Of a stretch of 64,000 nucleotides of DNA, positions 1,459-16,170 are shown in pieces. Origin of the DNA: Desulfuromonas sp. (GTDB taxonomy: Bacteria > Desulfobacterota > Desulfuromonadia > Desulfuromonadales > UBA2294); the NCBI GenBank assembly GCA_002869615.1, contig PKUH01000001.1, positions 71,937-135,936 of the forward strand, written 5' to 3'. A program made the translations under genes and the position numbers. How positions within the stretch are numbered: position 1 is the first letter of the stretch; the number at the start of each line of letters is the position of its first letter. The notes under the pieces are model-generated. The model was not told the origin of the DNA. It made no database searches and was given only the letters and a program-made list of their open reading frames with translations.

Positions 1459-1620
1459 CATTTAAATAATGACAGAATTTGAATCTTATAATACCCTCAA
1501 TCACTTGCGAATCGTCGATTCTGTGCGATAGTTGCAAACAGGTTCAGAAAAAACCTTTTATCTAATTAAATCAAGCCCTTTATCCACAAAGAATCATCAT
1601 TGCGAACCGGAGAGTTAATT

Positions 1621-4600
1621 GTGCCAACCGGAATACTCATAAGTTTTTTTCAGAATCGCTCCGATGCACGCAAGTGCCTTTGGGCTCTCAATAAAAAGGG
1701 CTTTCGTCGAGCCGCTGTTCTGCATCGCTCGAGCGGCGGCAACATCGACATCCTTGACTGCTTCAAGTGGACCCGGATCATCGGGCTTCTGGCCCTCACC
1801 TTAGGTTCCGGACTGGTAGCGCTTTTTACCGATATCGGCAAACTTGATCTGCGCTTATTCGGTGAAGACTTGCCACTTCATACACTGATTGTCAGCGGTT
1901 CAATAATCGGAATCACCCTTGGACTTGCCTGGCTTAAACGGTCACGTTTCGGTATTGCGACCCGTATTATCGATCAATACGTTCATTCCCTGATGCCGGA
2001 TGAGGCTGCATTGATCTTACAGGCACCGGTCGATGCGATGAAATCACCGATGGCAATAATTCGCGATAAGAGCGAGACCCTTCCGACAATTTTCATCCTT
2101 CATCCAGGTCGCGAACACCGGGGGGCCTCGCGCGATCTCGCCGGCCCTCTCAGCGATGACGAGGTCAGCCGCCGAGCCCGCTTCCAGGGGATTGAACACC
2201 AACTACAAAACAAGGATTCCGGTAAATCAGAACTGCTGCATCGGCTGAAAAAAGAAGGTCAATGGTTTCAGGAAATCTGTACCGATCTTACGGAGGCCTG
2301 CCGCCTCGAACAGGGTGCTTCACCGGTTGCTGAATGGATCATCGATAACGAATTCCTGGTTGCCAAGGCTGTTCGAGATATTCTCGTCAACCTGCCTAAA
2401 AGCTACTACCGTGAACTGCCGGTCCTGACCAGTCACAAACACTGGACCGGCTTTCCCTGCGTTTATGAGCTGGCCAAGGAAATGGTTTTCGACAATGAAT
2501 CGCGGCTCAATCGTGAAAACATTATTTCCTTCATCAGTTCCTACCAGACACTCAAAAAACTTTCGATTGCCGAACTCTGGGCGGTTCCACAAATGCTCAG
2601 AATCGCCCTGATCGAGAGCATTCTCGATCTGGCAATCCGGGTTCACAATGACATGCGCGAGCGCCAGCTCGCAGCCTTCTGGGCAAACCGTTTCATTGCC
2701 GCCAACCGGCGCGATTCATCGCAAATATTTTCGATCCTGGCAGAGCTTGATGATCGCCATCCGGAACCAAGCCTTTATTTCGGTTCACAGCTGATCAGCC
2801 TGCTCTATGATCAGGCAGCCACCCTGGCACCAGTAGAAAGCTGGCTCGAGCGTAAACTTGGAAAATCTGCCAATGATATCAACTTCAGCGAACAGAACCG
2901 CCAGGCCCATGACCAACTGCTGATCGAGGCCGCATTCACCAGTATCCGCCAACTCGTCCAGATCGACTGGCGCGACATCTTCGAAGAATTGAGCTGGGTC
3001 GAAAAAATCATGACCACCGATCCGGCTGGTATTTATCCAGCGATGGACTTTCAGACCCGCGACAAATACCGGCAGGTCATCAAACACTATGCACAACGCA
3101 GCGGCCGAACCGAAGATGATGTCGCGCGTACGGCCATAGAGCTCGCCCGCTCAACAGAAAGTCACGTCGGAACCCTGCTATTCGGTCCGGGCAAAGCTCG
3201 CCTCGATGCGAAACTGGACTGTCGGGAGAACCGGAGCAAACGATTCCGGGCTTTCCTGAGGGCCAACCACTGCGCAGTTTATCTGGGCGGCCTTGGAGCT
3301 ATCTTCCTGGGCATCTATCTTTTCATGTTCAATATTGCATTGACCAATGAATCGATAGCAGCCCGGTTCGGGTTCGCTATCTTATTGACGATTCCGGTCA
3401 GTCAATTGGCTCTCGAAATCCTCAATTACTTCCTGACGCGATTGGTCAGGCCCCGACCGCTCTCGAAAATGGATTTTGAAAAAACAGGGATTCCGGATGA
3501 ATTCCGGACACTTGTCGTTGTGCCGACCCTTTTGACAAGTGACGGAGCCATCAGAGAAGAAATTGAAAAACTCGAAATCCGCTTCATGGCCAACCGCGAC
3601 ACGAATCTTCGCTTCGGGCTTTTTACCGACTACACAGATTCGACCCTTGAACATAATGAAGAAGATGAAGCACTACTGCAACTCGCACAAAAGAGTATCA
3701 ATGGATTGAACAGGCGCTACGACACTGACACTTTTTTCCTGTTTCACCGCGAACGCACCTGGAGTAATACGGAGCAAAAATTTATCGGCTGGGAGAGAAA
3801 GCGGGGCAAGCTGGAAGAGTTGAATCAGCTGCTCGACGGCAGCAGCCCGGACAGTGCAAACAAGCTCGTCTATGCCGGGAACCCGGAACAACTTGACGGC
3901 ATCCGTTTTATTATCACCCTGGACAGTGACACCCAGTTGCCGCACGGCACCGCCCGGCGGATGATCGAAACCCTGGCCCATCCACTCAATCAGCCGCAGA
4001 TTGATGAGTCTGGACAGATCAAACGTGGGACCTACACGATTCTTCAGCCCCGTGTCACCCCGTCGCTGCAAAGCACGAGCAAATCTCCATTCAGCCAGAT
4101 TTACGCCGATGCCGTCGGCGTCGACCCTTATACACGGGTGGTCTCGGATGTCTACCAGGACCTGAGTGGTGAAGGTTCATACCACGGCAAGGGGATCTAT
4201 GATGTCAGAGCCTTCAGCCGGATTCTCTCGAATAATTTCCCCGATGAACTGGTCCTGAGTCACGATCTGATTGAAGGCGCACACGTCCGGACGGCACTGG
4301 TCAGTGATATCGAACTGTTCGACGACTTCCCCCAGGATTACCTTGGTTTTATTACCAGGCTTCGACGCTGGATTCGCGGAGACTGGCAAATATTCCCCTG
4401 GATCTTTCCCTGGGTCCCGAAAAAAGGTGGCGGTTTCAGAAAGAACCCGATTTCGATCTTCAACCGCTGGAAAGTTCTGGACAACCTCAGGCGCAGCCTC
4501 CTGCCAACCTTCAACCTTGCCCTGCTGATTGCCGCATGGTTGACATCACAGCAGGCAGCCATGGCCGTTATGATGATGATCGGCCTGCAAATCTTCTTCA

Positions 4601-7600
4601 ACCCCGTATCCCAGATCCTGTCTGCCGTGACAACCCGGAAAGGCATCAGAGGCTTCTCGGTTTCCCTGCACCTCAACCATCTGCAGCGGGCTCTCGCAGA
4701 AATAGCTATGCTGCCCCATCAGGCGTGGGTAACATTTGCCGCGATTTTACAAGCCTGGTACCGCCTTTTCATCTCTCATCGCAAACTCCTCGAATGGACA
4801 ACCGCGTACGCTGCCCAGACAACGGTTCAACGCCGCCGCCGCCTTTTCGCTGCTTCCCTGCTCCTCGCCTCAGCTTCTGCCGTGGCAATCAGTCTGCTCC
4901 TGTCTGAGCAGCAACCGGACAACCTTGTACAGGCCAGCCCATGGCTGCTCCTCTGGTTTTTCTCGCCTTTTTTCGGGTGGCTCCTGACAGCCCGGCCAAT
5001 CGAAAAAAACCAACGCGAGCTTTTACCGGCGAAAGAAATTCTGTTTCTGCGCCGAATCAATCGCCTGACCTGGCGTTTTTTCGCCGACTTTGTTAACGCC
5101 GAGACCTCATGGCTGCCGCCTGACAATTACCAGGTGTCGCATCAGGATCAGCTGGCTCTGCGGACCAGCCCGACCAATATCGGTTTTGCCATGCTCAGCA
5201 CCGTCGCGGCTTGCGACAGCGGATATATCACTCAGGTCGGGACCCTCGATAAACTCGAATCGACCATGCAGTCAATCGAAAAGCTGGAACGCTTCGAAGG
5301 CCATCTGTTGAACTGGTATGACATCGGCAACCTCACGCCGCTGGAACCCCGTTATGTATCGACTGTCGACAGCGGCAACTTCCTCGGTGCGCTCTGGACC
5401 CTGCAACAGGGGCTCAAAGATCAATTCACCGGTGAAATTATCAGTCGTTCAACTTTTGACGGTCTGCATGATACCGGCCGCATTTTGCTGAGGCGGATTC
5501 GTGACGATAATACTCTCAAGCCGATTCGCAGAGACTTGACCGCACTGCTTGAACAACTCGATCGGCCACCACGCAAGACTGTCGACCAGCTGAAACTACT
5601 ACGTCAGTCGGCCGATGCCGGCAAGAATATCACCAATTCAATACTCGAAATCTATCCTGAGCCGTGTGAGGTCAGTTACTGGTGCAAAGCGCTGGTCACT
5701 GAATTCGCAAACTGGTCAGAGATGGCCGATCAGTATCTTTCGTGGATTGAGCTGCTTGGCCAGCAGCAGAGCAAGCTCGCCGAAACCGCGATCAGGAATC
5801 TTTCCGAGATCAACGAAGACCTGAGCCAGGCGCCATCGATAAGAAATCTCGCCCGGGGGGAATCGGCTTCGGGCGCTCTGCTGAACATTATCCGTGAAAA
5901 TGCCCACACCGAATCTCCGTCCCTTGCCAAATGGGCGGGAGAAGTCCTTGATCGTTTTGCTGTCGCCCAACGTCACGCCAGCGCATTCAGACAACGGCAT
6001 GAAGATCTTCTGTCCAGCATCCGTAACCTGGCGGGCGGCATGAACCTCAAGTTTCTCTATCATCCGGAGAGGAAGCTGTTTTCAATCGGCTACAATGTTT
6101 CATCAGGCGAGATGGACAAATCCTATTACGATTTGCTGGCGAGTGAAGCCCGCTTCGGTGGTTTTGTTGCGATCGCCCGCGGCGACATCCCGATGGAACA
6201 CTGGTTCACCATGGGGCGTCCGCACACTCTGGTCGGTCGACACCGCGTTCTGCTCAGTTGGACCGGAACCATGTTTGAGTACCTGATGCCACAAATATTT
6301 CTCCGCTCCTATCGCTACTCCCTGCTCGACAAGGCGATACACAATGCGGTTGACACCCAGATCGAATATGGCAGAAAGAACGGTATCCCCTGGGGCATAT
6401 CCGAATCCGCATTCGGCGACCTAGATTTCAATAAAACTTACCAGTACAAGGCTTTCGGCGTTCCAAAGCTCGGTTTGAAGCGGGTTCTCGAGGACCAACT
6501 CGTTGTTTCACCCTATTCAACCCTGATGGCCGTCGGAATCATGCCGAAGGAAACGGTTCAGAATCTAAGAGACCTTGACCAACTCGGTATGCTCGATAAA
6601 TACGGCTACTTTGAAGCGATAGATTTCCGCCGCAAACCGGAACGGGATGGCCAGAGGGGTGTCAAAATCCAGGCTTATATGGCTCATCACCAGGGGATGG
6701 GATTTCTTGCCCTGACAAACTTCCTGCACAACAATCTCTTCCAGCGCCGCTTTCATGCCGATCCGAGGGCCCGGGCTTTCGAACCGTTGCTGCAGGAGAG
6801 GATTCCGACCTTGCCTCCACTTCAGCTGACGGCAACTCGTGAGCGGACCACTTCTCTGGTCGAAAGCAGTTCGGACATCCCGGCATCCGGAACCTTTGAA
6901 ACTCCGCACACATCAATGCCGAAAACCCAGATCCTCTGCAACGGCCACTACGACCTGATGATTACCCATACCGGTGGCGGATACAGCAAATGGAAAGGAC
7001 AGGAGATCAGCCGCTGGCGCGCTGATCGAACAAACGACTGCTGGGGAGTCTACTGCTATCTTAATGATCTGGCAGAACGAAAAACCTGGTCTGCAACCTA
7101 TCACCCGATTGGCGGAGAGCCAGACTATTACAATGCAGAACTCGCCCTCGACCGGGCAATCTTCCGCCGACTCGAAAATGACGTCCAGCTTGAAACAGAG
7201 GTTCTGGTTGCCCCGGAAGATGACGTCGAGATCCGGCGAATGACGCTGATCAATCGGTCATCCCACGCCAAGCGGCTCAACCTGACCAGTTACATTGAAC
7301 TTTCGATGACACCTCACGCCGCTGACCGGGCGCATCCGGCTTTCAATAAACTTTTCATCCAGACGGAGGCCGTCGAGGAGAAAAGAACCCTTCTTGCCTA
7401 TCGGCGCTACCGGAGCGAAGAGGCTGAGCCGTTCTTTGTCGCGCACCGTTTCGTCAATGACCAGGAACAGAAGCACTGGCGTTTCGAGACCGATCGCAGC
7501 CAATTCATCGGCCGGGGGCAGAATCTGGCAACGGCCCGTGGAGCCAGCAGCAGCCTCGGCAATAATGACGGCTTCGTCCTTGATCCGGTTCTTTGTCTGC

Positions 7601-10600
7601 GCGAAACCGTATCGCTCGAACCGAGCGAACGGGTTTCTGTTGCAATGATCATTGCCGCCGGTGATTCACGACAAAAGGTCCTTGATCTCGCTGAAAAATA
7701 CAACACCATGCAGGCCGTAAACCGGGCGATGGATTTTGCCTGGCGTTCAGCCCAGATTGAGCTTCGCCAGCTCCACATCCTGCCGGACGAGGCCAGACGC
7801 TTTCAACAACTGGCCGATCATCTCATCTTCCCGAACAATCTGTTGCGCGCACCGGCTGAAACACTTGAAGAGAACCGAAAAGGCCAATCCGGACTCTGGC
7901 CCTACGCAATCTCTGGAGATCTGCCAATTCTGCTTGTCTCAATCGACGAAACCCGTGACATCGGCCTGGTTCGCCAACTTCTTCAGGCTCATACCTATTG
8001 GCGTCGCCACGGCTTTCTCGCTGACCTCGTCATCCTTAACGAGGAATCGGAAAGTTATGAGCAACCCTTGCGCGAGCGGCTGGTCCATCTGATTCAGGCC
8101 CACTCAATGTTTGCCGGCCGCGATCAACCAAGCGGCATATACCTGCGCAGCGCTGAACAAATGCCGGATGAGGACCTCAGACTGCTCAAAGCTGCGGCGT
8201 CGGTCTTTCTGGTTGCAGCCCGCGGGTCGCTCTCACAACAGCTGGGGGTGCCACGGCCAACTCCCGTACTGCCACCATTGTTTAAAAAGTCAGGCAACTT
8301 TGACAGCCCGTCACCACCTTTGCCGGACATTGAGCTTCTGCACCACAATGGTTATGGCGGCTTCACTCCCGACGGAAAAGAATATGTGATCGAGCTGAAG
8401 CCGGGTGTCAGTACACCGGCGCCATGGGTTAACGTCATGGCCAATCCCGACTTTGGCGCCCTGGTCAGCGAAACAGGAGCCGGCTTCTCCTGGTATGGCA
8501 ACAGCCAGCGCAACCGGATCAACAGCTGGTCAAACGACCCGGTCATCGACCCTCCGTCGGAAGCAATCTATCTCCGTGATGAAGTAACGGGGGACTTCTG
8601 GACTGCAACCTCGGCACCGATTCGCAATGACTCGCCATATCGCTGTCGACACGGCGCCGGCTATACGATATTTGAACACAATCATGCCGGCACTGAATCC
8701 GAACTGACGATGTTCGTTCCGGTTGACAGCAACAACAGCCCGGTCAGAATTCAGCGATTGAGGCTTAAAAACAAAGCCCGTCGTAAACGAACCATCAGTG
8801 TTACCTGGTATACGGAACTGACGCTCGGCGAGCATCGTGAAGTTTCCCAGATGCATGCGATGACTCATTGGGACAGCGAATCACGGATTCTGCTCGCCCG
8901 CAACTGCTATCACCCCGAATACGGCAATCGCGTAACCTTCTTCGCGATGACGCCAAAACCGGACTCATGGGCGGGTGACCGGACTGCCTTTATCGGCCGC
9001 AATCGTACAATGACAGCTCCACAGGCAATGTTGCTCGAAAATCTCAACAACCACGGCGGTGCCGGCTGCGACCCCTGTGCCGCCCTGCAAACAACGATTG
9101 AGCTTGCCCCGGACGAAACTGAAGAGGTCCTCTGTATCACCGGGCAGGCAGAGTCGGTCGAGCAGGCACGGCTTTTCTCGCGAACCTTCCGTGATCATAG
9201 TATTGTTGAATCGTCGTTGACTGCAACATGCGAATGGTGGGACCGGTTACTCGGCACAATCAGGGTCACAACCCCCGAACCTGCAGCCGACATCCTGATC
9301 AACCGTTGGCTCCTTTATCAATCACTCAGTTGTCGGATCTGGGGCAGGTCGGCTTTTTACCAGTCCGGGGGTGCGTTCGGTTATCGTGATCAGTTGCAGG
9401 ATGTAATGGCTTTTCTGTTCACCCGCCCCGAACTGGCAAGAGAGCAGATATTGCTTGCGGCCAGTCGCCAGTTCCGTGAAGGTGATGTTCAGCACTGGTG
9501 GCACCCGCCGACCGGTGCCGGTATCCGCTCGAGGATTTCCGATGATCTGCTCTGGCTTCCATTCGTCACCAGCCAATATGTCCGTTCAACGGGTGATGCT
9601 GACATTCTCAACATCGACGTTCCATATCTCAGCGCACCATTGCTGGAACCGGGTCAACACGAAGTTTTCAGTGCCCCTGAGATCACATTCGAACAGGGTA
9701 CTATCTTTGAACACTGCCAGCGGGCAGTCCGAAAAGGCCTGACATCCGGCCCGAACGGTCTCCCTCTGATCGGCACCGGCGACTGGAACGACGGGATGAA
9801 CCTGGTCGGAGCCGATGGCCGGGGCGAATCGGTCTGGCTGGGCTGGTTTCTCTTCGAAATACTGGCCGGCATGGCATATCTGGCAGACCGCCTTGGCAAA
9901 CCGGAACTCGAACAGGAATATCGTCAGAAACGGAATGATCTGGTTCAGCAGATCGAGAAAGTTGCCTGGGATGGGGCCTGGTATCAACGCGGCACGTTCG
10001 ATGACGGATCGCCACTCGGTTCGTCGCGGTGCGATGAAGCGAAGATAGATTCGCTCCCGCAATCATGGGCCTGGCTGACCGGAGCCGGCAACCGCGAACG
10101 GGCCGAACAGGCCATAGAATCGGCGTGGGAGCACCTGATCCTGGAGGATGAACGGCTGGTTCTGCTGTTCGAGCCGCCTTTTAATCATTCAGAACAAAAT
10201 CCCGGCTATATCAAAGGCTACCCGCCGGGAGTCAGGGAGAACGGTGGTCAGTACACCCATGCGGCACTCTGGTTTGCCATGGCTCTGGCGCGCAAAGGAG
10301 ATGGCAACCGCGCGGTCAAGCTTCTCAACATGATGAGCCCGATGGAACATACCCGGGACCGCGAGGCAGCTGCCCACTACGGGCTTGAGCCCTACGCGAT
10401 CGCCGCAGACATATACCGACTTCCCGGCCGCGTCGGTCGTGGCGGCTGGTCATGGTATACTGGTTCAGCCGCCTGGACGTACCGCGCCTGGGTTGAAGAG
10501 ATCTTCGGACTCAAACAGATTGAGAATACGCTCCACATCCACCCGGTGATTCCGCAGGAATGGGAGAGCTTCTGTGTTGAGTATCGACATGGTGACGCCC

Positions 10601-10755
10601 ACTATCGAATTGACGTTGAAAACCCCGAGCATGTCATGAGCGGCATCGCAAGTGTCGAACTTGATGGGAGGTATCTGGAGAACAAGGTTATCCCGTTAAC
10701 AAAGGAACCCGGCAACTACCATGTCCGCGTCCGGCTGGGAGGAGACAAACCCTGA
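1621..10755 (+). CDS. ndvB: giant cyclic beta-1,2-glucan synthase-like protein (NdvB/ChvB/Cgs family: membrane GT domain plus C-terminal GH94 glycosyl-phosphorylase-like domain)
   Basis: A single ORF runs 1600-10755. I prefer the GTG at 1621 because GGAGAG (1609-1614) lies 6 nt upstream. The glycosyltransferase region has DSDTQLP and RWIRGDWQ motifs and multiple TM segments. The C-terminal third (RIWGRSAFYQSGGAFGYRDQLQD...GDWNDGMN...ENGGQYTHAA) resembles cellobiose/chitobiose-phosphorylase (GH94) catalytic domains. Confidence 0.8.
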   Translation: MPTGILISFFQNRSDARKCLWALNKKGFRRAAVLHRSSGGNIDILDCFKWTRIIGLLALTLGSGLVALFTDIGKLDLRLFGEDLPLHTLIVSGSIIGITLGLAWLKRSRFGIATRIIDQYVHSLMPDEAALILQAPVDAMKSPMAIIRDKSETLPTIFILHPGREHRGASRDLAGPLSDDEVSRRARFQGIEHQLQNKDSGKSELLHRLKKEGQWFQEICTDLTEACRLEQGASPVAEWIIDNEFLVAKAVRDILVNLPKSYYRELPVLTSHKHWTGFPCVYELAKEMVFDNESRLNRENIISFISSYQTLKKLSIAELWAVPQMLRIALIESILDLAIRVHNDMRERQLAAFWANRFIAANRRDSSQIFSILAELDDRHPEPSLYFGSQLISLLYDQAATLAPVESWLERKLGKSANDINFSEQNRQAHDQLLIEAAFTSIRQLVQIDWRDIFEELSWVEKIMTTDPAGIYPAMDFQTRDKYRQVIKHYAQRSGRTEDDVARTAIELARSTESHVGTLLFGPGKARLDAKLDCRENRSKRFRAFLRANHCAVYLGGLGAIFLGIYLFMFNIALTNESIAARFGFAILLTIPVSQLALEILNYFLTRLVRPRPLSKMDFEKTGIPDEFRTLVVVPTLLTSDGAIREEIEKLEIRFMANRDTNLRFGLFTDYTDSTLEHNEEDEALLQLAQKSINGLNRRYDTDTFFLFHRERTWSNTEQKFIGWERKRGKLEELNQLLDGSSPDSANKLVYAGNPEQLDGIRFIITLDSDTQLPHGTARRMIETLAHPLNQPQIDESGQIKRGTYTILQPRVTPSLQSTSKSPFSQIYADAVGVDPYTRVVSDVYQDLSGEGSYHGKGIYDVRAFSRILSNNFPDELVLSHDLIEGAHVRTALVSDIELFDDFPQDYLGFITRLRRWIRGDWQIFPWIFPWVPKKGGGFRKNPISIFNRWKVLDNLRRSLLPTFNLALLIAAWLTSQQAAMAVMMMIGLQIFFNPVSQILSAVTTRKGIRGFSVSLHLNHLQRALAEIAMLPHQAWVTFAAILQAWYRLFISHRKLLEWTTAYAAQTTVQRRRRLFAASLLLASASAVAISLLLSEQQPDNLVQASPWLLLWFFSPFFGWLLTARPIEKNQRELLPAKEILFLRRINRLTWRFFADFVNAETSWLPPDNYQVSHQDQLALRTSPTNIGFAMLSTVAACDSGYITQVGTLDKLESTMQSIEKLERFEGHLLNWYDIGNLTPLEPRYVSTVDSGNFLGALWTLQQGLKDQFTGEIISRSTFDGLHDTGRILLRRIRDDNTLKPIRRDLTALLEQLDRPPRKTVDQLKLLRQSADAGKNITNSILEIYPEPCEVSYWCKALVTEFANWSEMADQYLSWIELLGQQQSKLAETAIRNLSEINEDLSQAPSIRNLARGESASGALLNIIRENAHTESPSLAKWAGEVLDRFAVAQRHASAFRQRHEDLLSSIRNLAGGMNLKFLYHPERKLFSIGYNVSSGEMDKSYYDLLASEARFGGFVAIARGDIPMEHWFTMGRPHTLVGRHRVLLSWTGTMFEYLMPQIFLRSYRYSLLDKAIHNAVDTQIEYGRKNGIPWGISESAFGDLDFNKTYQYKAFGVPKLGLKRVLEDQLVVSPYSTLMAVGIMPKETVQNLRDLDQLGMLDKYGYFEAIDFRRKPERDGQRGVKIQAYMAHHQGMGFLALTNFLHNNLFQRRFHADPRARAFEPLLQERIPTLPPLQLTATRERTTSLVESSSDIPASGTFETPHTSMPKTQILCNGHYDLMITHTGGGYSKWKGQEISRWRADRTNDCWGVYCYLNDLAERKTWSATYHPIGGEPDYYNAELALDRAIFRRLENDVQLETEVLVAPEDDVEIRRMTLINRSSHAKRLNLTSYIELSMTPHAADRAHPAFNKLFIQTEAVEEKRTLLAYRRYRSEEAEPFFVAHRFVNDQEQKHWRFETDRSQFIGRGQNLATARGASSSLGNNDGFVLDPVLCLRETVSLEPSERVSVAMIIAAGDSRQKVLDLAEKYNTMQAVNRAMDFAWRSAQIELRQLHILPDEARRFQQLADHLIFPNNLLRAPAETLEENRKGQSGLWPYAISGDLPILLVSIDETRDIGLVRQLLQAHTYWRRHGFLADLVILNEESESYEQPLRERLVHLIQAHSMFAGRDQPSGIYLRSAEQMPDEDLRLLKAAASVFLVAARGSLSQQLGVPRPTPVLPPLFKKSGNFDSPSPPLPDIELLHHNGYGGFTPDGKEYVIELKPGVSTPAPWVNVMANPDFGALVSETGAGFSWYGNSQRNRINSWSNDPVIDPPSEAIYLRDEVTGDFWTATSAPIRNDSPYRCRHGAGYTIFEHNHAGTESELTMFVPVDSNNSPVRIQRLRLKNKARRKRTISVTWYTELTLGEHREVSQMHAMTHWDSESRILLARNCYHPEYGNRVTFFAMTPKPDSWAGDRTAFIGRNRTMTAPQAMLLENLNNHGGAGCDPCAALQTTIELAPDETEEVLCITGQAESVEQARLFSRTFRDHSIVESSLTATCEWWDRLLGTIRVTTPEPAADILINRWLLYQSLSCRIWGRSAFYQSGGAFGYRDQLQDVMAFLFTRPELAREQILLAASRQFREGDVQHWWHPPTGAGIRSRISDDLLWLPFVTSQYVRSTGDADILNIDVPYLSAPLLEPGQHEVFSAPEITFEQGTIFEHCQRAVRKGLTSGPNGLPLIGTGDWNDGMNLVGADGRGESVWLGWFLFEILAGMAYLADRLGKPELEQEYRQKRNDLVQQIEKVAWDGAWYQRGTFDDGSPLGSSRCDEAKIDSLPQSWAWLTGAGNRERAEQAIESAWEHLILEDERLVLLFEPPFNHSEQNPGYIKGYPPGVRENGGQYTHAALWFAMALARKGDGNRAVKLLNMMSPMEHTRDREAAAHYGLEPYAIAADIYRLPGRVGRGGWSWYTGSAAWTYRAWVEEIFGLKQIENTLHIHPVIPQEWESFCVEYRHGDAHYRIDVENPEHVMSGIASVELDGRYLENKVIPLTKEPGNYHVRVRLGGDKP

Positions 10756-10790
10756 AGAAGAAAACCGGAAAAAAAAGCCAAGTGCCGAAC

Positions 10791-11978
10791 ATGAGCAGAA
10801 CCAGGGCTATCTATGATCGCCAGTTGCCCAACCTGGAAGGGGCGTTGCATTCGCTTTACCAGGAGATCAGGCGCCTTCTTGAACGACACGATTTCACCCC
10901 GACGATCAAGTACCGGGTCAAGCGCTTTGATGCCTATTTCGACAAGTTGAGAAAAAATCGTCTGCGCGGCACCGGTCGCGGCAATCGATCACTCGGGGAT
11001 TTTTTCGCCCTGCGCATCATTTGCCCGTTTCTCGAAGACATCGAAACAGTCGAGCGGATTCTCATCGCCAATTATGACGTGATTGAAACTGAGCGGAAAT
11101 CGACTCAACACTCATTTCGTGAATTCGGTTATGACTCGGTTCATTTGATGATCAAACCGAAACAGCAGATGATCAAGGCTAAACTGCCCGGAGTACGCAA
11201 CGTCTGCGAAGTCCAGCTCCGGACCATCCTGCAGGATGCCTGGGCTGAAGTCGAGCATGAGCTGGTTTACAAATCGGACATCTCCCTGCCAAAGGAATCG
11301 ATCCGGCGCAAGCTGGCCTCACTGAATGCTACGCTGAATCTGTCCGATCTGATCTTTCAGGAGATCCGGGATTACCAGAATGAAATCCGTCAGCATGGAC
11401 GTATGCGCCGGAGTTCGGTCCTTGAAGAGACGTTGAATCTCGATCTGATCAATATTGATCCGCCATTACAGAACGGACCCAAGCCGATCGCGTCGACCCT
11501 TAAAAGCCGCCTTGAAAAGACCATGTTGCGCGCCCTTGAAGCCCACAGCAGTAACGACTTCGATACGGCGATCGAGCTTTATGGAGCTATTCTCGGTATG
11601 CGGATCGAGACACCGATCAGGGCTCTGGTCTACAACCATCGCGGCATGGCCTTTTTTGCCCAGGGCAATCATTCGCGGGCGTTACGCGATTTCAACCAGG
11701 CGATCCGGTATGACCCGACGAGTTCACGAAGTTTATGCAATCGCGGGTTGTGCAACCGGATACTTAAACGTTATGACAAGGCACTGGAGGATTTTGAAAC
11801 GGCCCTCGAAATCGATCCGGTCAACGCCGATTGTTATTTCGGCCGCGCCCAGACCTACCTTGATACAGGGCAACCGGAACTGGCCAAAAACGACTGCCGT
11901 AAAGTGCTGGAGATCAACCCGGAGCATCAGGCGGCCCACGACCTGCTCAACCGAGCCGAACCCCCTGATTTATCATAA
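10791..11978 (+). CDS. RelA/SpoT-domain (small alarmone synthetase-like) protein fused to C-terminal TPR repeats
   Basis: The N-terminal half has RVKRFDAYFDKLRKN, FALRIICPF, FGYDSVHLMI and EVQLRTILQDAWAEVEHELVYK, which are nucleotidyl/pyrophosphokinase motifs of the RelA_SpoT fold. The C-terminal roughly 150 aa holds about four TPR units (AIELYGAIL...ALRDFNQAIRYDP...ALEDFETALEIDP...AKNDCRKVLEINP). The start is ATG 10791, or alternatively GTG 10782. Confidence 0.8.
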   Translation: MSRTRAIYDRQLPNLEGALHSLYQEIRRLLERHDFTPTIKYRVKRFDAYFDKLRKNRLRGTGRGNRSLGDFFALRIICPFLEDIETVERILIANYDVIETERKSTQHSFREFGYDSVHLMIKPKQQMIKAKLPGVRNVCEVQLRTILQDAWAEVEHELVYKSDISLPKESIRRKLASLNATLNLSDLIFQEIRDYQNEIRQHGRMRRSSVLEETLNLDLINIDPPLQNGPKPIASTLKSRLEKTMLRALEAHSSNDFDTAIELYGAILGMRIETPIRALVYNHRGMAFFAQGNHSRALRDFNQAIRYDPTSSRSLCNRGLCNRILKRYDKALEDFETALEIDPVNADCYFGRAQTYLDTGQPELAKNDCRKVLEINPEHQAAHDLLNRAEPPDLS

Positions 11979-11980
11979 CA

Positions 11981-12007
11981 AAAAAGGGGCAGAGTTTCCT
12001 CTGCCCC
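11981..12007 (-). terminator. terminator hairpin between convergent genes (good T-run on the minus strand)
   Basis: GGGGCAGAG (11986-11994), loop TTTC, then CTCTGCCCC (11999-12007). The AAAAA at 11981-11985 gives a U-run for the minus-strand transcript of the 7-TM gene. Confidence 0.65.
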
Positions 12008-12030
12008 CAATTAACGCCTTTCCAAACCGA

Positions 12031-12729
12031 TCAGCGCAGAAGCTTTGCCAGGTACAGGAAGGTGCCGCCAACCGAGAGTCCGGCCAGAACGTTGCCAATC
12101 TCCTTGCAGTAGATCGACAGGGTGTAACGGCCGAGATACTCGCCCTGGGCTGCGAGGGCATCCAGACTGTAGACATTGATATAAAGTTCCGAGCCCTTCC
12201 ACAGGAAGATGAAAGCGAAGACAAAGATAAAAGCAGCAAATCCCTTACTGATCGGGCTGTCCTGGATATTGACATATATCTTGCGAATAAGGTCGATATT
12301 GATCAGCGAGAGAAAGACCCAGTTTGTATTCTCAACGATGTTAATAACTTCAAGAGTCCGCTCATTCGGAGTAATATTGATCCAGATAAAAACCGCCGAA
12401 GCGACGATAACTCCGATCGTGGCCAGATAAACAAAGGCTTTGTTTCCTTCCAGTTCGAGCGTGCGCGAAAAAACATAATACTCCTGAAAGCCGTGACTCA
12501 TGATCAGGATTGCCATGGTCCCGACAATCGATGTCATTGCCTGAATTTCGGGGATTTCCAGGCCGGGGAGGAAGTCAATCGCGGTCGGCAGAATCTCGGC
12601 GACCAGTATCAGGAAAAAGCCGACAGCAATACTGGTCCAGACCCGGGCATTCCCGAGACTGAAATAGAACGAGACGATACCTGCCAGAACCCAGAGAGGG
12701 AGAGTGATAATTGTCCAATCCATACCCAT
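12031..12729 (-). CDS. hypothetical polytopic membrane protein (about 7 predicted TM helices)
   Basis: A 232-aa ORF with about seven hydrophobic stretches. A strong SD (GGAGGT) lies 6 nt before the ATG at 12729. I recognised no family motif. Confidence 0.7.
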   Translation of the reverse strand: MGMDWTIITLPLWVLAGIVSFYFSLGNARVWTSIAVGFFLILVAEILPTAIDFLPGLEIPEIQAMTSIVGTMAILIMSHGFQEYYVFSRTLELEGNKAFVYLATIGVIVASAVFIWINITPNERTLEVINIVENTNWVFLSLINIDLIRKIYVNIQDSPISKGFAAFIFVFAFIFLWKGSELYINVYSLDALAAQGEYLGRYTLSIYCKEIGNVLAGLSVGGTFLYLAKLLR

Positions 12730-12775
12730 AACATTACCTCCAACCTGTTAAGATCAATAAAAACAAAGCCCCCTC

Positions 12776-13726
12776 CTACGAAATGGAGCGGGCAATTTTC
12801 TGCATATCTTCAATCATCGATTTAATAGCCGAAGGACCGGCAACCATTTTGGCAGCCCGGGAAAGATCGTCAAGCAGTTGACTGAACATGGCATCAGTCC
12901 ATTCGCCATTTTCAGGAATGTGCTTTTCCATCTCCTTGTCGACCAGTTGGATACCGATCTTGCCAATATGCTTCTCGGCGGCACTGCGCAGCATCGATTG
13001 TAAACGGATGCGACGATTTTTCTGTTCCATTTCCTTGTCGCGATTCTGTTCCTGTTGCTGGTTTTTCTTGTTCTTGGCAATCATTTCGTGAGCTTTTTTC
13101 CAGAGCGCCGACAGGTCAGCCGATGCCATCAGGTCAGCCAGGTCAATCTCATCAGCGCCGCCGGAGCTCAGAACATCGACTTTGGCTCCCGGCAATTTGG
13201 CCACCGACATCGAATCGTCGGCCTTGGTCTCGATATCGGTCGAGCCGTCATGGAAAAAGCCGAGCGGATTACCATCCTTGTAGAAAATCAGAGCGATCTT
13301 TTCGTCGTTGTAGATCCGCAGGCAGCCGCTCATCTTGTCTTGCTTGAGCTTGCCGAGCAGCGCCTTGATATCAATCAACTTAAGCTCCTGACCTTTATAC
13401 AGGATGTTTCCGTGCAACAGGGCATGGATACTCATGGCGAGTTCTGTCGACAGCTTGTAGATATCGAGAATCAACAATCCGGAGAGGGAGAGTTCAAAAA
13501 TGCGGGCGATCGCGTCGTAAGCAATCAGACGATCGTTGGTCTCCTCGTACAGTGCACTGATCAATTTACCGGAGCTGAAGATAATAACCCCGGTGCCGGC
13601 GGCAGCCTCAAACCGGAGATAACCGGTAAAGCCACTCTTCTGCAGTTTGCCGAGAGCGTCAGGCATATTGATTTTTCCGGGGTTGACTTTTTCCCGGACA
13701 GGATTTCCGCGGGGCAAGAGAATCAT
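12776..13726 (-). CDS. hypothetical cytoplasmic protein with two tandem DUF4388/PATAN-like repeats, a charged K/Q/E linker and a small C-terminal helical domain
   Basis: There are two internally similar segments: LQKSGFTGYLRFEAAAGTGVIIFSSGKLISALYEE and LKQDKMSGCLRIYNDEKIALIFYKDGNPLGFFHDG. Both fit the tG-L-v...g-i-f-G-v-A pattern I associate with DUF4388. The family assignment is from memory only. Confidence 0.6.
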   Translation of the reverse strand: MILLPRGNPVREKVNPGKINMPDALGKLQKSGFTGYLRFEAAAGTGVIIFSSGKLISALYEETNDRLIAYDAIARIFELSLSGLLILDIYKLSTELAMSIHALLHGNILYKGQELKLIDIKALLGKLKQDKMSGCLRIYNDEKIALIFYKDGNPLGFFHDGSTDIETKADDSMSVAKLPGAKVDVLSSGGADEIDLADLMASADLSALWKKAHEMIAKNKKNQQQEQNRDKEMEQKNRRIRLQSMLRSAAEKHIGKIGIQLVDKEMEKHIPENGEWTDAMFSQLLDDLSRAAKMVAGPSAIKSMIEDMQKIARSIS

Positions 13727-13785
13727 AGCGTCACTTCTTTAGTATTCCAGTCTTAGAGGTCATAAATACCAGTAAACATTAGATT

Positions 13786-13812
13786 ATTATATGAAACACA
13801 GAATCGTGTCAA
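13786..13812 (-). promoter_or_regulatory. near-consensus sigma70 promoter for the DUF4388-like / 7-TM gene pair
   Basis: On the minus strand, TTGACA (13812-13807) and TATAAT (13791-13786) are both perfect hexamers. The spacer is only 15 nt. The promoter lies about 55 nt upstream of the ATG at 13726. Confidence 0.5.
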
Positions 13813-13819
13813 TCGCTTT

Positions 13820-13838
13820 ATTGCGGTGGCACCGCAAT
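13820..13838. promoter_or_regulatory. 19-bp perfect palindrome (operator or transcript-end hairpin)
   Basis: ATTGCGGTG-G-CACCGCAAT has 9-bp arms. It sits 5 nt after the methyltransferase stop and immediately upstream of the -35 box at 13807-13812. No U-tract follows on the minus strand. Confidence 0.4.
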
Positions 13839-13842
13839 TCCT

Positions 13843-14835
13843 TCACGGTTTTCTGCCGCTAACAACAGCGGTATCATCACTGACATTCAGGACAGCGATA
13901 TCGACAAATCCTGCGGCCTTCATCCATGCCCCGATTTCTGCGCCGCTATAGGTTCGCCCCCCTTCAGTCATGACCAGCATATGAACGGCAAAGATCGAGG
14001 CCATCACCGGCGAAGCCTTGTCGTCGTCAAGCAGGAATTCATGCACCATCAATTTACCACCGCGGTCAAGTGCGGCATACAACTTCCTGATCAGCTCCTG
14101 GCAGCCGCTTTCATTTTGTGAATGCAGGACCTGGGACAACCAGATCGCATCGGCACCGCCGGGAATCGGGTCGATCTCGAAATTTCCGGGATAAAATCTG
14201 ACCTTGCTGGCCGACTCCAGATCTTCCAGTCGTTTGCGGCCGAGGGCCAGGGCGTCGGGCAGATCAAAAATACGGATTTCCGAAAGCTCGGGCCAGAACT
14301 GTTGGAATGCGGCCGCGTAAGTACCGGGCCCACCGCCGACATCAATCAGCACTTCCGCCCGCTCGAGATCGAGCTGCGGCACGACCTGGGGTGCGAGGTC
14401 ACGGGTGACATCATTCATCCCCTCGATAAAATCACGGGTCCATTCATCATTCTCGCCAAGGGCGTTTGCTTCGGCAGCAAAATCGGGTTTGCCGGTTTGG
14501 ACAACACCGGGTAGCCGGCTCCAGGAATCCCAGCAGTGATGGATATGCCGAAAAATTGCTCCGCGATAGGTAGCAGGATTGCCAAGATGTTCGTAAACGA
14601 CCGGATGGTTGCGGTACCCGTGATCACCTTTTTCAAGCATATTGAGAGCGGTCAGGGCATTTAGCAGCAACCTGAGAGCGCGGCGGTCAACCGAAAGAGC
14701 TGCGGCCAGTTCGCCAGGACTCTTTTCAGCAGCGCCAATCTCGAGAAACAGTCCGAGATCATTTGCTGTCAGAAAAATCTTGGCGGCCTGAAAGCCGCCG
14801 GCCAGGCGTTGCATGTCACGAAAGGATTTAAACAA
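13843..14835 (-). CDS. class I SAM-dependent O-methyltransferase (Methyltransf_2/COMT-like, with N-terminal dimerisation/wHTH domain)
   Basis: The SAM-binding glycine motif is VLIDVGGGPGTYAAAF. The overall 330-aa layout is typical of the family. The substrate is unknown. Confidence 0.75.
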   Translation of the reverse strand: MFKSFRDMQRLAGGFQAAKIFLTANDLGLFLEIGAAEKSPGELAAALSVDRRALRLLLNALTALNMLEKGDHGYRNHPVVYEHLGNPATYRGAIFRHIHHCWDSWSRLPGVVQTGKPDFAAEANALGENDEWTRDFIEGMNDVTRDLAPQVVPQLDLERAEVLIDVGGGPGTYAAAFQQFWPELSEIRIFDLPDALALGRKRLEDLESASKVRFYPGNFEIDPIPGGADAIWLSQVLHSQNESGCQELIRKLYAALDRGGKLMVHEFLLDDDKASPVMASIFAVHMLVMTEGGRTYSGAEIGAWMKAAGFVDIAVLNVSDDTAVVSGRKP

Positions 14836-14859
14836 TTTGACCTCCCGGAGAAAAATTAT

Positions 14860-16170
14860 TCAAAACTGATCCTTGGCCCGCAAATCGGTCATAACATGCC
14901 GGCGGAGTTGAGCGAAACGCCCCGCGCCCTCATCCTCGAGGAAGTGAATGGGCGGATCAGGGTCAATTGCGACAAGGATCATCTCGCGAAACATTTCCGA
15001 ATCGTCCCGATCGGTTGCGGCATTCATCATTTTTATGATTTTTTCGGCGGCGGCCTGCGGTACCAGTTCAGTAACAACCTCTTCACCATCTTCATCATAG
15101 AGCGCAAGGGTGACATCCCCCCCTTCACCGGTCAACCCGGTATCGGGGAGATGAAACAGTAGCCCGCCGCGCTCCGGGAAGAGTGCCTGCAACTCCGAGT
15201 TGGCCAACAGCAGATCAACACAGCTGCTATGGAAAAAGCCGGTCTGATGATGACGCAGATCCTGGAAAAAATACCCATCCTGCCCGGTTACACGGCGACC
15301 ACAGTTCGGGCATTCTCCGGTCAGGTGACTGGCCCGTCCCGGCGGCATTTCATCAACGGCGGCGAGAACCCGGGCCGGCGGTTTGCCTGACAGCCTGTTC
15401 TCGACATTGTACTGCTTGCCGACAAAGGCCGCCAGATCCTTGAACTGCTTATGAACCGAGGTACCCCTGGCATGTGTCAGCACCGGATAGATCCGGCTGC
15501 TGAAGCTGGTCGTCAGACTTTCAACTTTTGGACTCTTCGACATGTAAGTATCGACAACCTGAAAATCACGTTCCTCGGCTGAGTAGACGAGAAAATCACG
15601 CATGCCTACGGTTCTCTCCTTGAGGCGGGTGCGGCCATCGATCAGGCTCGGCACCAGCCAGAGGCTTTCCGGGTCACTGCCGGCATCAAGCATCGCCTGA
15701 CGCAGAGCCGAAGCGTTGACCAACGATGGCCGATCTTTCACCGGCACCAGTACGAGGTCGGCTGCCAGCAATGCACTATGGGTGAAATAATCGAGAATCG
15801 GCCTCGTATCGATCACCAGGATGCCGGAGAGATCGCCCCGGGCGAGAACCTTGCTCAGATGAGAGATATCATCATCGGGCGGATTCAGTTGGCGCTCGGA
15901 CACCATAAATTGAACACCGTATTCGCCAAGTTGCACCATTTCGTCGAGCGGCTTTCCGGAAAAGATCCCGGCGACCGAGTACCCCCGGTGTTCACCAATG
16001 GCAAACATATTGTCGACACTGAAGTGATTATCAAAAGAGATGACCGTTACCGGCAGGTCTTCACAGAGCGCTTTCAGATAGACAGCGAGATTGGTGGCGA
16101 TGGTCGTTTTTCCGACCCCCCCTTTTTCGCTCGCCACAGTAACAACAAACAGTCCGGTATCGTCCATCAC
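14860..16170 (-). CDS. ParA/MinD-family P-loop ATPase with a roughly 180-aa C-terminal extension (CxxC...HxxC zinc-ribbon-like motif plus an acidic region)
   Basis: A deviant Walker A motif, SEKGGVGKTTIATNLA, lies at the N-terminus. The C-terminal part has ECPNCGRRV...FFHSSC followed by DEDGEEV and DRDDSE acidic stretches. Confidence 0.75.
   Translation of the reverse strand: MMDDTGLFVVTVASEKGGVGKTTIATNLAVYLKALCEDLPVTVISFDNHFSVDNMFAIGEHRGYSVAGIFSGKPLDEMVQLGEYGVQFMVSERQLNPPDDDISHLSKVLARGDLSGILVIDTRPILDYFTHSALLAADLVLVPVKDRPSLVNASALRQAMLDAGSDPESLWLVPSLIDGRTRLKERTVGMRDFLVYSAEERDFQVVDTYMSKSPKVESLTTSFSSRIYPVLTHARGTSVHKQFKDLAAFVGKQYNVENRLSGKPPARVLAAVDEMPPGRASHLTGECPNCGRRVTGQDGYFFQDLRHHQTGFFHSSCVDLLLANSELQALFPERGGLLFHLPDTGLTGEGGDVTLALYDEDGEEVVTELVPQAAAEKIIKMMNAATDRDDSEMFREMILVAIDPDPPIHFLEDEGAGRFAQLRRHVMTDLRAKDQF

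What the first reader, a model, noticed from the sequence alone, without database searches (positions are those of the whole stretch)
10791..11978. Small-alarmone-synthetase-like RelA/SpoT domain fused to TPR repeats, directly behind the giant glucan synthase gene
The 396-aa protein has a stand-alone RelA_SpoT nucleotidyltransferase domain (…FGYDSVHLMI…EVQLRTILQDAWAEVEHELVYK) but no HD hydrolase, TGS or ACT domains. Instead it carries about four C-terminal TPR units. It starts only 26-35 nt after the stop of the 9.1-kb ndvB-like gene and is followed by a terminator, so the two are probably co-transcribed. SAS enzymes make (p)ppGpp. Related toxSAS and CapRel-type proteins make (pp)pApp or pyrophosphorylate tRNA and are controlled by a fused or partner sensor domain. 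A TPR sensor fused to this catalytic fold, coupled to periplasmic glucan synthesis (osmoadaptation), is an unusual combination. It could be an envelope or osmotic-stress alarmone switch, or an auto-inhibited toxic effector.
Basis: partly seen in the sequence, partly recalled or inferred. Interest (0 to 1): 0.55.

Follow-up and report, generated by a model that had tools for sequence, protein, structure and literature searches.

The report
Known TPR-braked (p)ppGpp synthetase, DsRel family
The gene encodes an ordinary member of DsRel ("SAS-TPR"), an already named and biochemically studied family of small alarmone synthetases, and its position behind the giant cyclic-glucan synthase gene is a quirk of a few closely related genomes rather than a conserved pairing.

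Summary
Window 10791-11978 (+) encodes a 395-aa protein with an N-terminal RelA_SpoT synthetase domain, four C-terminal TPRs, and no HD, TGS or ACT domains. It starts 35 nt after a genuine cyclic beta-1,2-glucan synthase gene.

The fusion is not unusual. It is the defining architecture of the RSH family DsRel ("SAS-TPR"). The Treponema denticola member Tde-SAS (TDE1711) was characterised in 2023. It is a tetramer that makes mainly ppGpp, its TPR domain acts as a brake, and it is not toxic in E. coli.

The window protein is 40% identical to TDE1711 across both domains (E=1e-85). Its catalytic domain alone scores 141-253 bits against six labelled DsRel references and at most 82 bits against eight other SAS families. 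It groups with DsRel in 200 of 200 bootstraps. All catalytic residues are invariant across 73 species.

The toxSAS reading is not supported. Similarity to CapRel and FaRel2 is weak, and no neighbouring gene is conserved across the family.

The ndvB adjacency occurs in only five of 85 loci examined (the window and four relatives), and these four relatives are all at least 73% identical. It is absent in relatives at 70%, 67% and 64% identity.

The parts
10791..11978 (+). DsRel / SAS-TPR small alarmone synthetase gene (395 aa plus stop; alternative GTG start at 10782)
   Evidence: ORF list and sequence. An identical protein, P0001, is annotated '(p)ppGpp synthetase [Desulfuromonas sp.]'. Classified as DsRel.
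10914..11279 (+). RelA_SpoT synthetase core (aa 42-163) with motifs RxK (R42, K44), DxxAxR (D70, R75), GYxSxH (Y114, S116, H118) and ExQxRT (E140, Q142, R144), plus H156
   Evidence: Pfam E=8e-19. These residues align to the RelQ/RelP motifs. R42, K44, D70, R75, Y114, H118, E140, Q142 and H156 are 100% conserved in 73 species-level members; S116 is in 71 and R144 in 72.
11295..11435 (+). Long conserved alpha-helix (aa 169-215; RRKLAxLNAxLxLSDxIFQEIRDYQ) following the catalytic core
   Evidence: AF2 helix H169-215, pLDDT about 60. Mean column conservation 0.69, higher than the catalytic core at 0.63. It aligns with the C-terminal helix of RelQ.
11436..11507 (+). Disordered, poorly conserved interdomain linker (aa 216-239)
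   Evidence: AF2 pLDDT below 50 for aa 216-230. Conservation 0.23. It corresponds to the protease-sensitive linker, residues ~230-250, of Tde-SAS.
11508..11957 (+). TPR domain (aa 240-389): four TPR motifs plus a capping helix. H283, R284 and F289 are invariant, and G285, M286, A287, R318 and R352 are at least 94% conserved
   Evidence: Pfam TPR_1 E=1e-30. AF2 pLDDT above 95, nine helices. Foldseek to consensus TPR proteins, OGT and MamA. Conservation.
1600..10755 (+). Upstream cyclic beta-1,2-glucan synthase (Cgs/NdvB) gene, 3051 aa. It is a neighbour, not part of the DsRel system
   Evidence: GH94 supersandwich, GH94 catalytic and glucoamylase domains. 1871 bits to A. tumefaciens Cgs 8rf0/8rf9.
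10756..10790 (+). 35-nt intergenic spacer between the ndvB stop and the SAS ATG, with no terminator- or promoter-like site
   Evidence: Sequence. Scan found no + strand promoter or terminator in 10400-10791. The spacer is only loosely conserved in L001 and L002.
11985..12008 (.). GC-rich hairpin shared by the convergent genes (bidirectional intrinsic terminator; the T-run is on the minus strand in this window)
   Evidence: Terminator scan: 10 pairs, 7 of them G-C. Conserved with compensatory substitutions in L002.

Best explanation
The gene encodes an orthologue of the DsRel ('SAS-TPR') family of small alarmone synthetases, the same family as Treponema denticola Tde-SAS (TDE1711). By inference from that characterised member, the N-terminal RelP/RelQ-like domain transfers pyrophosphate from ATP to GDP/GTP/GMP. 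It would make mainly ppGpp, with some pppGpp and pGpp and trace ppApp, probably as a homotetramer. The C-terminal four-TPR domain keeps the enzyme in a low-activity state by raising Km(GDP) and lowering kcat. An unidentified ligand or partner binding the strongly conserved TPR surface would relieve this brake. It is a chromosomal, non-toxic regulatory enzyme of the stringent-response network, not a toxin. In this genome and four close relatives the gene lies directly downstream of cgs/ndvB and is probably co-transcribed with it, but that arrangement is a recent, lineage-specific acquisition. What is shown here: the architecture, family membership, intact catalytic residues, absence of a conserved partner gene, and the narrow distribution of the ndvB linkage. 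What is inferred from the literature: product spectrum, tetramer, TPR brake and non-toxicity. What is speculative: the identity of the TPR ligand and any role of co-expression with ndvB.
For: Architecture: RelA_SpoT plus four TPRs, no HD/TGS/ACT. More than 120 homologues of about 405-415 aa with the same architecture. At least 534 species-level genome hits across Desulfuromonadales, Smithellaceae, Calditrichota, KSB1 and Spirochaetes. [quoted passage not shown] Direct comparison with TDE1711: 40% identity over aa 3-367, E=1e-85, collinear through both domains. Catalytic domain alone against 29 labelled references: DsRel 141-253 bits, every other family at most 82 bits. NJ bootstrap gives window plus six DsRel monophyletic in 200/200 replicates, nested with Desulfuromonadales DsRel in 187/200. 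Catalytic residues R42, K44, D70, R75, Y114, H118, E140, Q142 and H156 are 100% conserved in 73 species and align with the RelQ/RelP active-site motifs. The RelQ allosteric motifs EFVT and LAMNFWAT are replaced by TIKY and ILQDAWAE, as reported for Tde-SAS. Structure search returns RelQ (5dec) and RelP (6fgk) for the catalytic half.
Against: No biochemistry exists for this protein or for any Desulfuromonadales member. Identity to the only characterised member is 40%, so product spectrum and kinetics may differ. The Syn2 motif has Ala73 where 90% of the family has Gly (a clade trait shared with L001-L003), and its effect is untested. AF2 gives pTM 0.46 with an uncertain interdomain arrangement, so the structural basis of the brake is not shown. 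I could not establish whether this genome also has a long Rel or an SAH; none lies in the 64-kb window.
Confidence: 0.88

Rival explanations
1. ndvB-coupled envelope or osmotic-stress alarmone switch: the enzyme is functionally dedicated to cyclic-glucan synthesis. For example, it could be co-expressed with Cgs and signal osmotic or envelope state through its TPR domain.
For: Same strand, 35-nt gap, and no predicted terminator or promoter between the two genes. The adjacency is kept in four relatives (L001, L002, L081 and the syntenic flanks). In L081 the called genes even overlap by 4 nt.
Against: The linkage is found only in the window and four relatives of at least 73% identity, out of 85 loci. 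The 70%-identity relative L082 keeps the downstream synteny but has a 248-nt intergenic region and no ndvB hit upstream. The 67% relative (L003) and the 64% relative (L083/L084, behind a cation-efflux gene) also lack ndvB. No neighbour is conserved across the family. Synteny at this divergence is explained by descent alone.
Confidence: 0.08
2. Auto-inhibited toxic effector (toxSAS, CapRel- or FaRel-like) that makes (pp)pApp or pyrophosphorylates tRNA, with the TPR domain as a fused antitoxin or sensor, possibly for phage defence.
For: CapRel uses a fused C-terminal domain as an autoinhibitory sensor (general knowledge). There is a weak PADLOC hit to the candidate family PDC-S33 (E=2.7e-10, aa 18-152, domain-level only). 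Tde-SAS makes ppApp slowly in vitro.
Against: Profile search of the PDB gives RelP 1e-24 and RelQ 6e-19, against CapRel 3e-9 and FaRel2 0.07. No toxSAS appears in the top 50 structural matches. No conserved adjacent small gene was found. The gene lies among core housekeeping genes, and relatives of 38-75% identity are found throughout Desulfuromonadales and in several other phyla. The characterised family member is non-toxic in E. coli and makes ppApp tens to hundreds of times more slowly than ppGpp.
Confidence: 0.03
3. Catalytically inactive pseudo-enzyme: a TPR scaffold protein that has kept a degenerate SAS fold.
For: Gly-to-Ala at position 73 in the DxxGxR motif.
Against: All other catalytic residues are intact and invariant across 73 species. 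Ala73 is shared by a whole clade and arose independently in three other members, L064, L074 and L077. From memory, unverified here, long RSH enzymes carry Ala at the equivalent position.
Confidence: 0.02

Closest known systems
Tde-SAS (TDE1711), Treponema denticola; DsRel / 'SAS-TPR' family (Wang et al. 2023, PMC10434055; family named in Jimmy et al. 2020)
   Same: Same two-domain layout: a SAS core of about 220 aa, a protease-sensitive or disordered linker, then four TPRs and a capping helix. 40% identity over both domains. Same Syn1-4 motifs. Same absence of the RelQ allosteric motifs. Same clade in 200/200 bootstraps.
   Different: The window protein is 395 aa against 410 aa, with a shorter N-terminus. 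It has Ala73 instead of Gly in Syn2. It comes from a Desulfuromonas-like MAG and lies behind cgs/ndvB. No biochemistry is available for it.
Desulfuromonadales DsRel members listed by Wang et al. (Geopsychrobacter electrodiphilus WP_020676169, Desulfuromonas soudanensis WP_053551286, Pelobacter seleniigenes WP_029914153)
   Same: Closest labelled relatives: the catalytic domain alone scores 230-253 bits, and they group with the window protein in 187/200 bootstraps.
   Different: None has been characterised. Their gene contexts were not examined here.
RelP (YwaC/SAS2) and RelQ (YjbM/SAS1) of Firmicutes
   Same: Same catalytic fold and active-site residues, and the best solved-structure matches.
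   Different: They are single-domain proteins without TPRs and form separate clades. The window protein scores 67.9 bits against the NCBIfam YjbM model, whose cut-off is 320. The RelQ pppGpp-allosteric motifs are absent.
CapRel / FaRel2 toxSAS
   Same: RelA_SpoT fold. CapRel likewise has a fused C-terminal regulatory domain that controls the catalytic domain.
   Different: Only marginal sequence similarity (CapRel E=0.047 with the single sequence and 3e-9 with the profile; FaRel2 0.07). The regulatory domain is different. There is no toxin-antitoxin or defence-island context.

Membership tests
DsRel (SAS-TPR) RSH family | N-terminal SAS catalytic domain with intact Syn1-Syn4 motifs | tested here: met
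   Pfam RelA_SpoT E=8e-19. R42/K44, D70/R75, Y114/S116/H118 and E140/Q142/R144 align to RelQ/RelP and are 97-100% conserved in the family.
DsRel (SAS-TPR) RSH family | C-terminal domain of about 180 aa with four TPR motifs | tested here: met
   TPR_1 E=1e-30. AF2 shows eight TPR helices plus a cap at pLDDT above 95.
DsRel (SAS-TPR) RSH family | Catalytic domain falls in the DsRel clade, separate from other SAS families | tested here: met
   Catalytic domain only: 141-253 bits against six labelled DsRel, at most 82 bits against 23 members of RelP, RelQ, BdRel, MixRel, MixRel5, AaRel, FabRel and ActRel. Monophyly in 200/200 NJ bootstraps. toxSAS families were not in the labelled set but were covered by the PDB profile search.
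DsRel (SAS-TPR) RSH family | Full-length collinear homology to the type member TDE1711 | tested here: met
   40% identity, aa 3-367, E=1e-85.
DsRel (SAS-TPR) RSH family | Lacks the RelQ allosteric (p)ppGpp-binding motifs (EFVT, LAMNFWAT) | tested here: met
   Alignment A2: TIKY and ILQDAWAE at the equivalent positions. This feature is reported for Tde-SAS.
DsRel (SAS-TPR) RSH family | Enzymology: ppGpp-preferring synthetase, homotetramer, TPR domain lowers activity | not testable with these tools
   Known only for Tde-SAS.
toxSAS (CapRel, FaRel, FaRel2, PhRel, PhRel2) | Conserved adjacent antitoxin gene, or a defence or mobile context | tested here: not met
   Clustering of the four genes on each side in 70 loci found no neighbour conserved across the family. 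The window is core chromosome.
toxSAS (CapRel, FaRel, FaRel2, PhRel, PhRel2) | Catalytic domain groups with toxSAS sequences | tested here: not met
   Profile against the PDB: RelP 1e-24 and RelQ 6e-19, versus CapRel 3e-9 and FaRel2 0.07.
toxSAS (CapRel, FaRel, FaRel2, PhRel, PhRel2) | Growth-inhibitory when expressed | not testable with these tools
   The family member Tde-SAS is reported non-toxic in E. coli.
RelQ / RelP equivalogs | Scores above the curated family cut-off; single-domain protein of about 210 aa | tested here: not met
   NCBIfam NF053588 (YjbM) 67.9 bits against a cut-off of 320. 395 aa with a TPR domain. Separate clade.
Long RSH (Rel/RelA/SpoT) | HD hydrolase, TGS and ACT/RRM domains | tested here: not met
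   No such Pfam hits. TIGR00691 scores 17 bits against a cut-off of 499.
Hypothetical cgs/ndvB-SAS operon | Linkage conserved across the SAS family or across divergent lineages | tested here: not met
   ndvB lies upstream only in the window, L001, L002 and L081 (73-76% identity). It is absent in L082 (70%), L003 (67%), L083/L084 (64%) and the other 77 genome loci.

The most novel reading that the evidence does not exclude
In one Desulfuromonadales sub-lineage the DsRel gene has been captured into the cgs/ndvB transcription unit. Alarmone synthesis capacity would then rise together with periplasmic cyclic-glucan synthesis, giving a lineage-specific link between osmoadaptation and the stringent response. 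Separately, the strongly conserved TPR residues (HRGMAxF, R318, R352) and the very conserved post-catalytic helix suggest a still unknown, universally conserved ligand or an intramolecular docking site that releases the brake. Identifying it would explain how DsRel enzymes are switched on.
Probability: 0.1. Interest if true: 0.4.

Novelty: already known. Interest (0 to 1): 0.1.

Why it matters
It matters little as a discovery. The architecture, the family name, its distribution in Deltaproteobacteria and spirochaetes, and the brake function of the TPR domain are all published, and the identical protein is already annotated as a (p)ppGpp synthetase. The residual value is modest. First, the activating signal of DsRel enzymes is unknown. 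The near-invariant TPR residues and the conserved helix documented here give concrete mutagenesis targets. Second, the ndvB adjacency in five loci (the window and four close relatives) is a cheap, testable hint of co-expression with cyclic-glucan synthesis.

Tried and rejected
1. The main texts of Jimmy et al. 2020 (PMC7229694) and its preprint were searched for 'DsRel' and 'TPR', with no occurrences. Their supplementary tables are not held.
2. Atkinson et al. 2011 does not mention TPR or DsRel.
3. A second database search seeded with a Treponema homologue did not list T. denticola among its top 120 hits. The TDE1711 sequence was instead recovered from the Wang et al. supplement; it is truncated there at about 394 of 410 aa.
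I therefore could not analyse TPR-to-catalytic-domain contacts, and a pTM of 0.46 means the domain orientation is unreliable in any case.
5. The look-up of the P0012 contig failed with a server error. L003, at 67% identity, serves as the substitute.
6. The PADLOC hit to PDC-S33 was considered as a defence lead. I rejected it as domain-level homology only.
7. The 722-aa ORF at 34860-37028 was considered as a possible long Rel. It is an RlmL/THUMP methyltransferase.
8. The toxSAS families were not in the parts of the labelled supplement that I read. The toxSAS comparison rests on PDB sequences only.

Full report
OBSERVATION. The ORF at 10791..11978 (+) is real. It encodes 395 aa from the ATG, or 398 aa from an in-frame GTG at 10782. 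Pfam gives RelA_SpoT (PF04607) at aa 42-163 with E=8e-19. It also gives very strong TPR matches at aa ~250-390, and no HD, TGS or ACT domain. NCBIfam's best catalytic hit is the YjbM/RelQ model, but at 67.9 bits against a cut-off of 320.

The upstream 3051-aa ORF (1600..10755) carries GH94 supersandwich, GH94 catalytic and glucoamylase domains. It scores 1871 bits against the solved Agrobacterium tumefaciens cyclic beta-1,2-glucan synthase (8rf0/8rf9), so 'ndvB-like' is correct. The gap between the two genes is 35 nt (26 nt to the GTG). No promoter- or terminator-like site lies between them.

The hairpin at 11985-12008 is real, but its T-run is on the minus strand. It is therefore primarily the terminator of the convergent gene 12031..12729 (-). 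In relative L002 the hairpin is kept through compensatory changes and has T-runs on both sides. It is best described as a shared bidirectional terminator whose + strand U-tract is weak in this window.

WHAT IT IS. An identical protein (P0001) is in public databases as 'MAG: (p)ppGpp synthetase [Desulfuromonas sp.]'. More than 120 homologues of 405-415 aa share the same RelA_SpoT plus TPR architecture at 54-75% identity. A scan of one genome per species found at least 534 relatives. The 80 fetched loci match at 38-74% identity, most over nearly the whole length, and span Desulfuromonadales, Smithellaceae, Calditrichota, KSB1, Hydrogenedentota and Spirochaetes including Treponema.

The literature names this family. 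Wang et al. 2023 (PMC10434055) characterised Treponema denticola Tde-SAS (TDE1711, 410 aa) as the first studied member of the RSH family DsRel. [quoted passage not shown]

MEMBERSHIP TEST. I did not rely on the shared architecture alone. The supplement of that paper holds family-labelled sequences.
- The window protein aligns with TDE1711 at 40% identity over aa 3-367 (E=1e-85), collinear through both domains. It aligns similarly with a termite-gut Treponema homologue.
- With the TPR region removed, the catalytic domain (aa 1-205) scores 141-253 bits against all six labelled DsRel references, including TDE1711 at 178 bits. It scores at most 82 bits against all 23 references from RelP, RelQ, BdRel, MixRel, MixRel5, AaRel, FabRel and ActRel.
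- In an NJ analysis of 159 catalytic-domain columns, the window protein plus DsRel is monophyletic in 200/200 bootstraps. It nests with the Desulfuromonadales DsRel members in 187/200.

CATALYTIC COMPETENCE. In an alignment of 73 species-level members, R42, K44, D70, R75, Y114, H118, E140, Q142 and H156 are 100% conserved. S116 and R144 are conserved in 97-99%. These residues align with the RxK, DxxGxR, GYxSxH and ExQxRT motifs of RelQ and RelP.

The only deviation is Ala73, where 90% of the family has Gly. It is a clade trait shared with L001-L003 and recurs independently in three other members, L064, L074 and L077, so it is not a lesion. The RelQ allosteric motifs EFVT and LAMNFWAT are replaced by TIKY and ILQDAWAE, as reported for Tde-SAS.

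STRUCTURE. AF2 with a 43-sequence alignment gives mean pLDDT 83.6 and pTM 0.46. The model has a confident SAS core (aa 1-160), a long helix at aa 169-215 (pLDDT about 60) and a disordered linker (pLDDT below 50 for aa 216-230). A very confident TPR domain follows (aa 240-389, pLDDT above 95), made of eight repeat helices plus a cap. This mirrors the layout described for Tde-SAS, including its protease-sensitive linker. Foldseek returns consensus TPR proteins, OGT and MamA for the C-terminal half, and RelQ (5dec) and RelP (6fgk) for the N-terminal half. No toxSAS appears in the top 50.

SAS VERSUS toxSAS. With the single sequence, the PDB matches are RelQ 9e-15 and RelP 2e-14, against CapRel 0.047. 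With a DsRel catalytic-domain profile they are RelP 1e-24, RelQ 6e-19, CapRel 3e-9, long Rel 4.5e-6 or weaker, and FaRel2 0.07. The PADLOC hit to the candidate family PDC-S33 (E=2.7e-10, aa 18-152) is domain-level only.

Clustering of the four genes on each side of the SAS gene in 70 loci shows no neighbour conserved across the family. The largest cluster is generic CheY-like receivers, present in 18 loci at variable offsets. The others are lineage-specific: ECF/Cbi transporter genes, an SprT-like gene, an aminotransferase, a histidine phosphatase and an M48-like peptidase. There is no antitoxin-like partner and no linked SAH.

The window itself is core chromosome: ValRS, SecA, RlmL, RNase G, HflX, BipA, PtsP and an ABC-F protein. 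Tde-SAS is non-toxic in E. coli, complements relA spoT, and makes ppApp tens to hundreds of times more slowly than ppGpp.

THE ndvB LINKAGE. Among the 80 species-level loci, an ndvB homologue lies upstream only in L001 and L002, which are 74% and 73% identical to the window protein. A metagenomic relative at 75% identity (L081) also has it, with ndvB 76% identical and the called genes overlapping by 4 nt.

More distant relatives do not have it:
- L082 (70% identity) keeps the window's downstream genes at 68-88% identity. Upstream it has a 248-nt intergenic region and no ndvB match, although only 345 nt of upstream sequence are available.
- L003 (67%) has no ndvB in its 1.5 kb of upstream sequence.
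- L083/L084 (64%) lie behind a cation-efflux gene and beside a CRISPR-Cas locus.

The adjacency is thus confined to one narrow sub-lineage, the window and four relatives out of 85 loci, and is explained by recent common descent. Co-transcription in these genomes is plausible but is an inference.

MECHANISM. The architecture, family membership, intact active site and absence of a toxin-antitoxin context are shown here. The rest is inferred from Tde-SAS. The enzyme is probably a homotetramer that makes mainly ppGpp from ATP and GDP. [quoted passage not shown] Activation presumably follows binding of an unknown partner to the TPR domain.

Two conservation patterns seen here bear on that step. H283, R284 and F289 are invariant in 73 species, and G285, M286, A287, R318 and R352 are at least 94% conserved. 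The post-catalytic helix (RRKLAxLNAxLxLSDxIFQEIRDYQ) is more conserved (0.69) than the catalytic core (0.63), whereas the linker is not conserved (0.23). This is compatible with a conserved ligand or an intramolecular docking site, but I could not test it.

VERDICT. The sequence observation is correct and the domain calls are right. However, the 'unusual combination' is the hallmark of a known, named and biochemically characterised family, and the toxSAS alternative and the glucan-synthesis coupling are not supported. Novelty: already known. Interest: low.

Noticed in passing
window 1600-10755 (+): A full-length cyclic beta-1,2-glucan synthase (Cgs/NdvB) homologue of 3051 aa sits in a Desulfuromonas-like MAG. 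Its alignment to A. tumefaciens Cgs is offset by about 216 residues (query 1454-2995 against chain 1238-2792), which suggests an N-terminal extension or a mis-called TTG start. From memory, Cgs is mostly studied in Rhizobiales and Brucella, so its presence in an anaerobic Desulfuromonadales lineage may deserve a separate look.
   Followed up: partly
window 12031-16170 (-); L082 1693-5826; L002 11268-12956: A conserved convergent gene cluster lies downstream of the SAS gene. It comprises a 232-aa protein with no Pfam family (88-94% identical in relatives), a 316-aa DUF4388/PatA_N protein, an O-methyltransferase and a ParA/MinD-like AAA_31 ATPase. Its function is unknown, and it stays syntenic even where ndvB is absent.
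   Followed up: partly
window aa 169-200 and aa 283-289, 318, 352 of the SAS-TPR protein (nt 11295-11390, 11637-11657): The helix after the catalytic core is more conserved than the core itself. The TPR2 motif HRGMAxF, together with Arg318 and Arg352 in the next two repeats, is at least 94% conserved across phyla. These are candidate sites for ligand binding or autoinhibition and are not discussed in the Tde-SAS paper sections I read.
   Followed up: partly
window nt 11007-11009 (Ala73): The Syn2 motif reads DFFALR instead of the family's DxxGxR. The Gly-to-Ala change is shared by the window, L001, L002 and L003, and arose independently in three other members (L064, L074, L077).
   Followed up: yes
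L081 5513-5516: In the 75%-identity relative the called ndvB stop and SAS start overlap by 4 nt, which would imply translational coupling. However, homology to the window protein begins only at nt 5549. The window's ATG at 10791 is not conserved in L001 or L002 (CTG and CCG there), so the true start codons in this clade are uncertain.
   Followed up: partly
L083/L084 9496-13227: In the 64%-identity relative the DsRel gene lies about 2 kb from a CRISPR-Cas adaptation module (Cas1, Cas2, Cas4, Cas7 and a Bro-N protein). This illustrates how variable the gene's context is and is probably coincidental.
   Followed up: no
window 40439-42352 (+), 24314-25963 (-), 59652-61475 (-), 16181-18103 (-): The window also encodes PtsP (GAF-EI of PTS-Ntr), HflX, BipA/TypA and an ABC-F protein. 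From memory, these are connected with alarmone signalling or are (p)ppGpp-binding in other bacteria. They lie 4-50 kb from the SAS gene and show no evidence of linkage.
   Followed up: no
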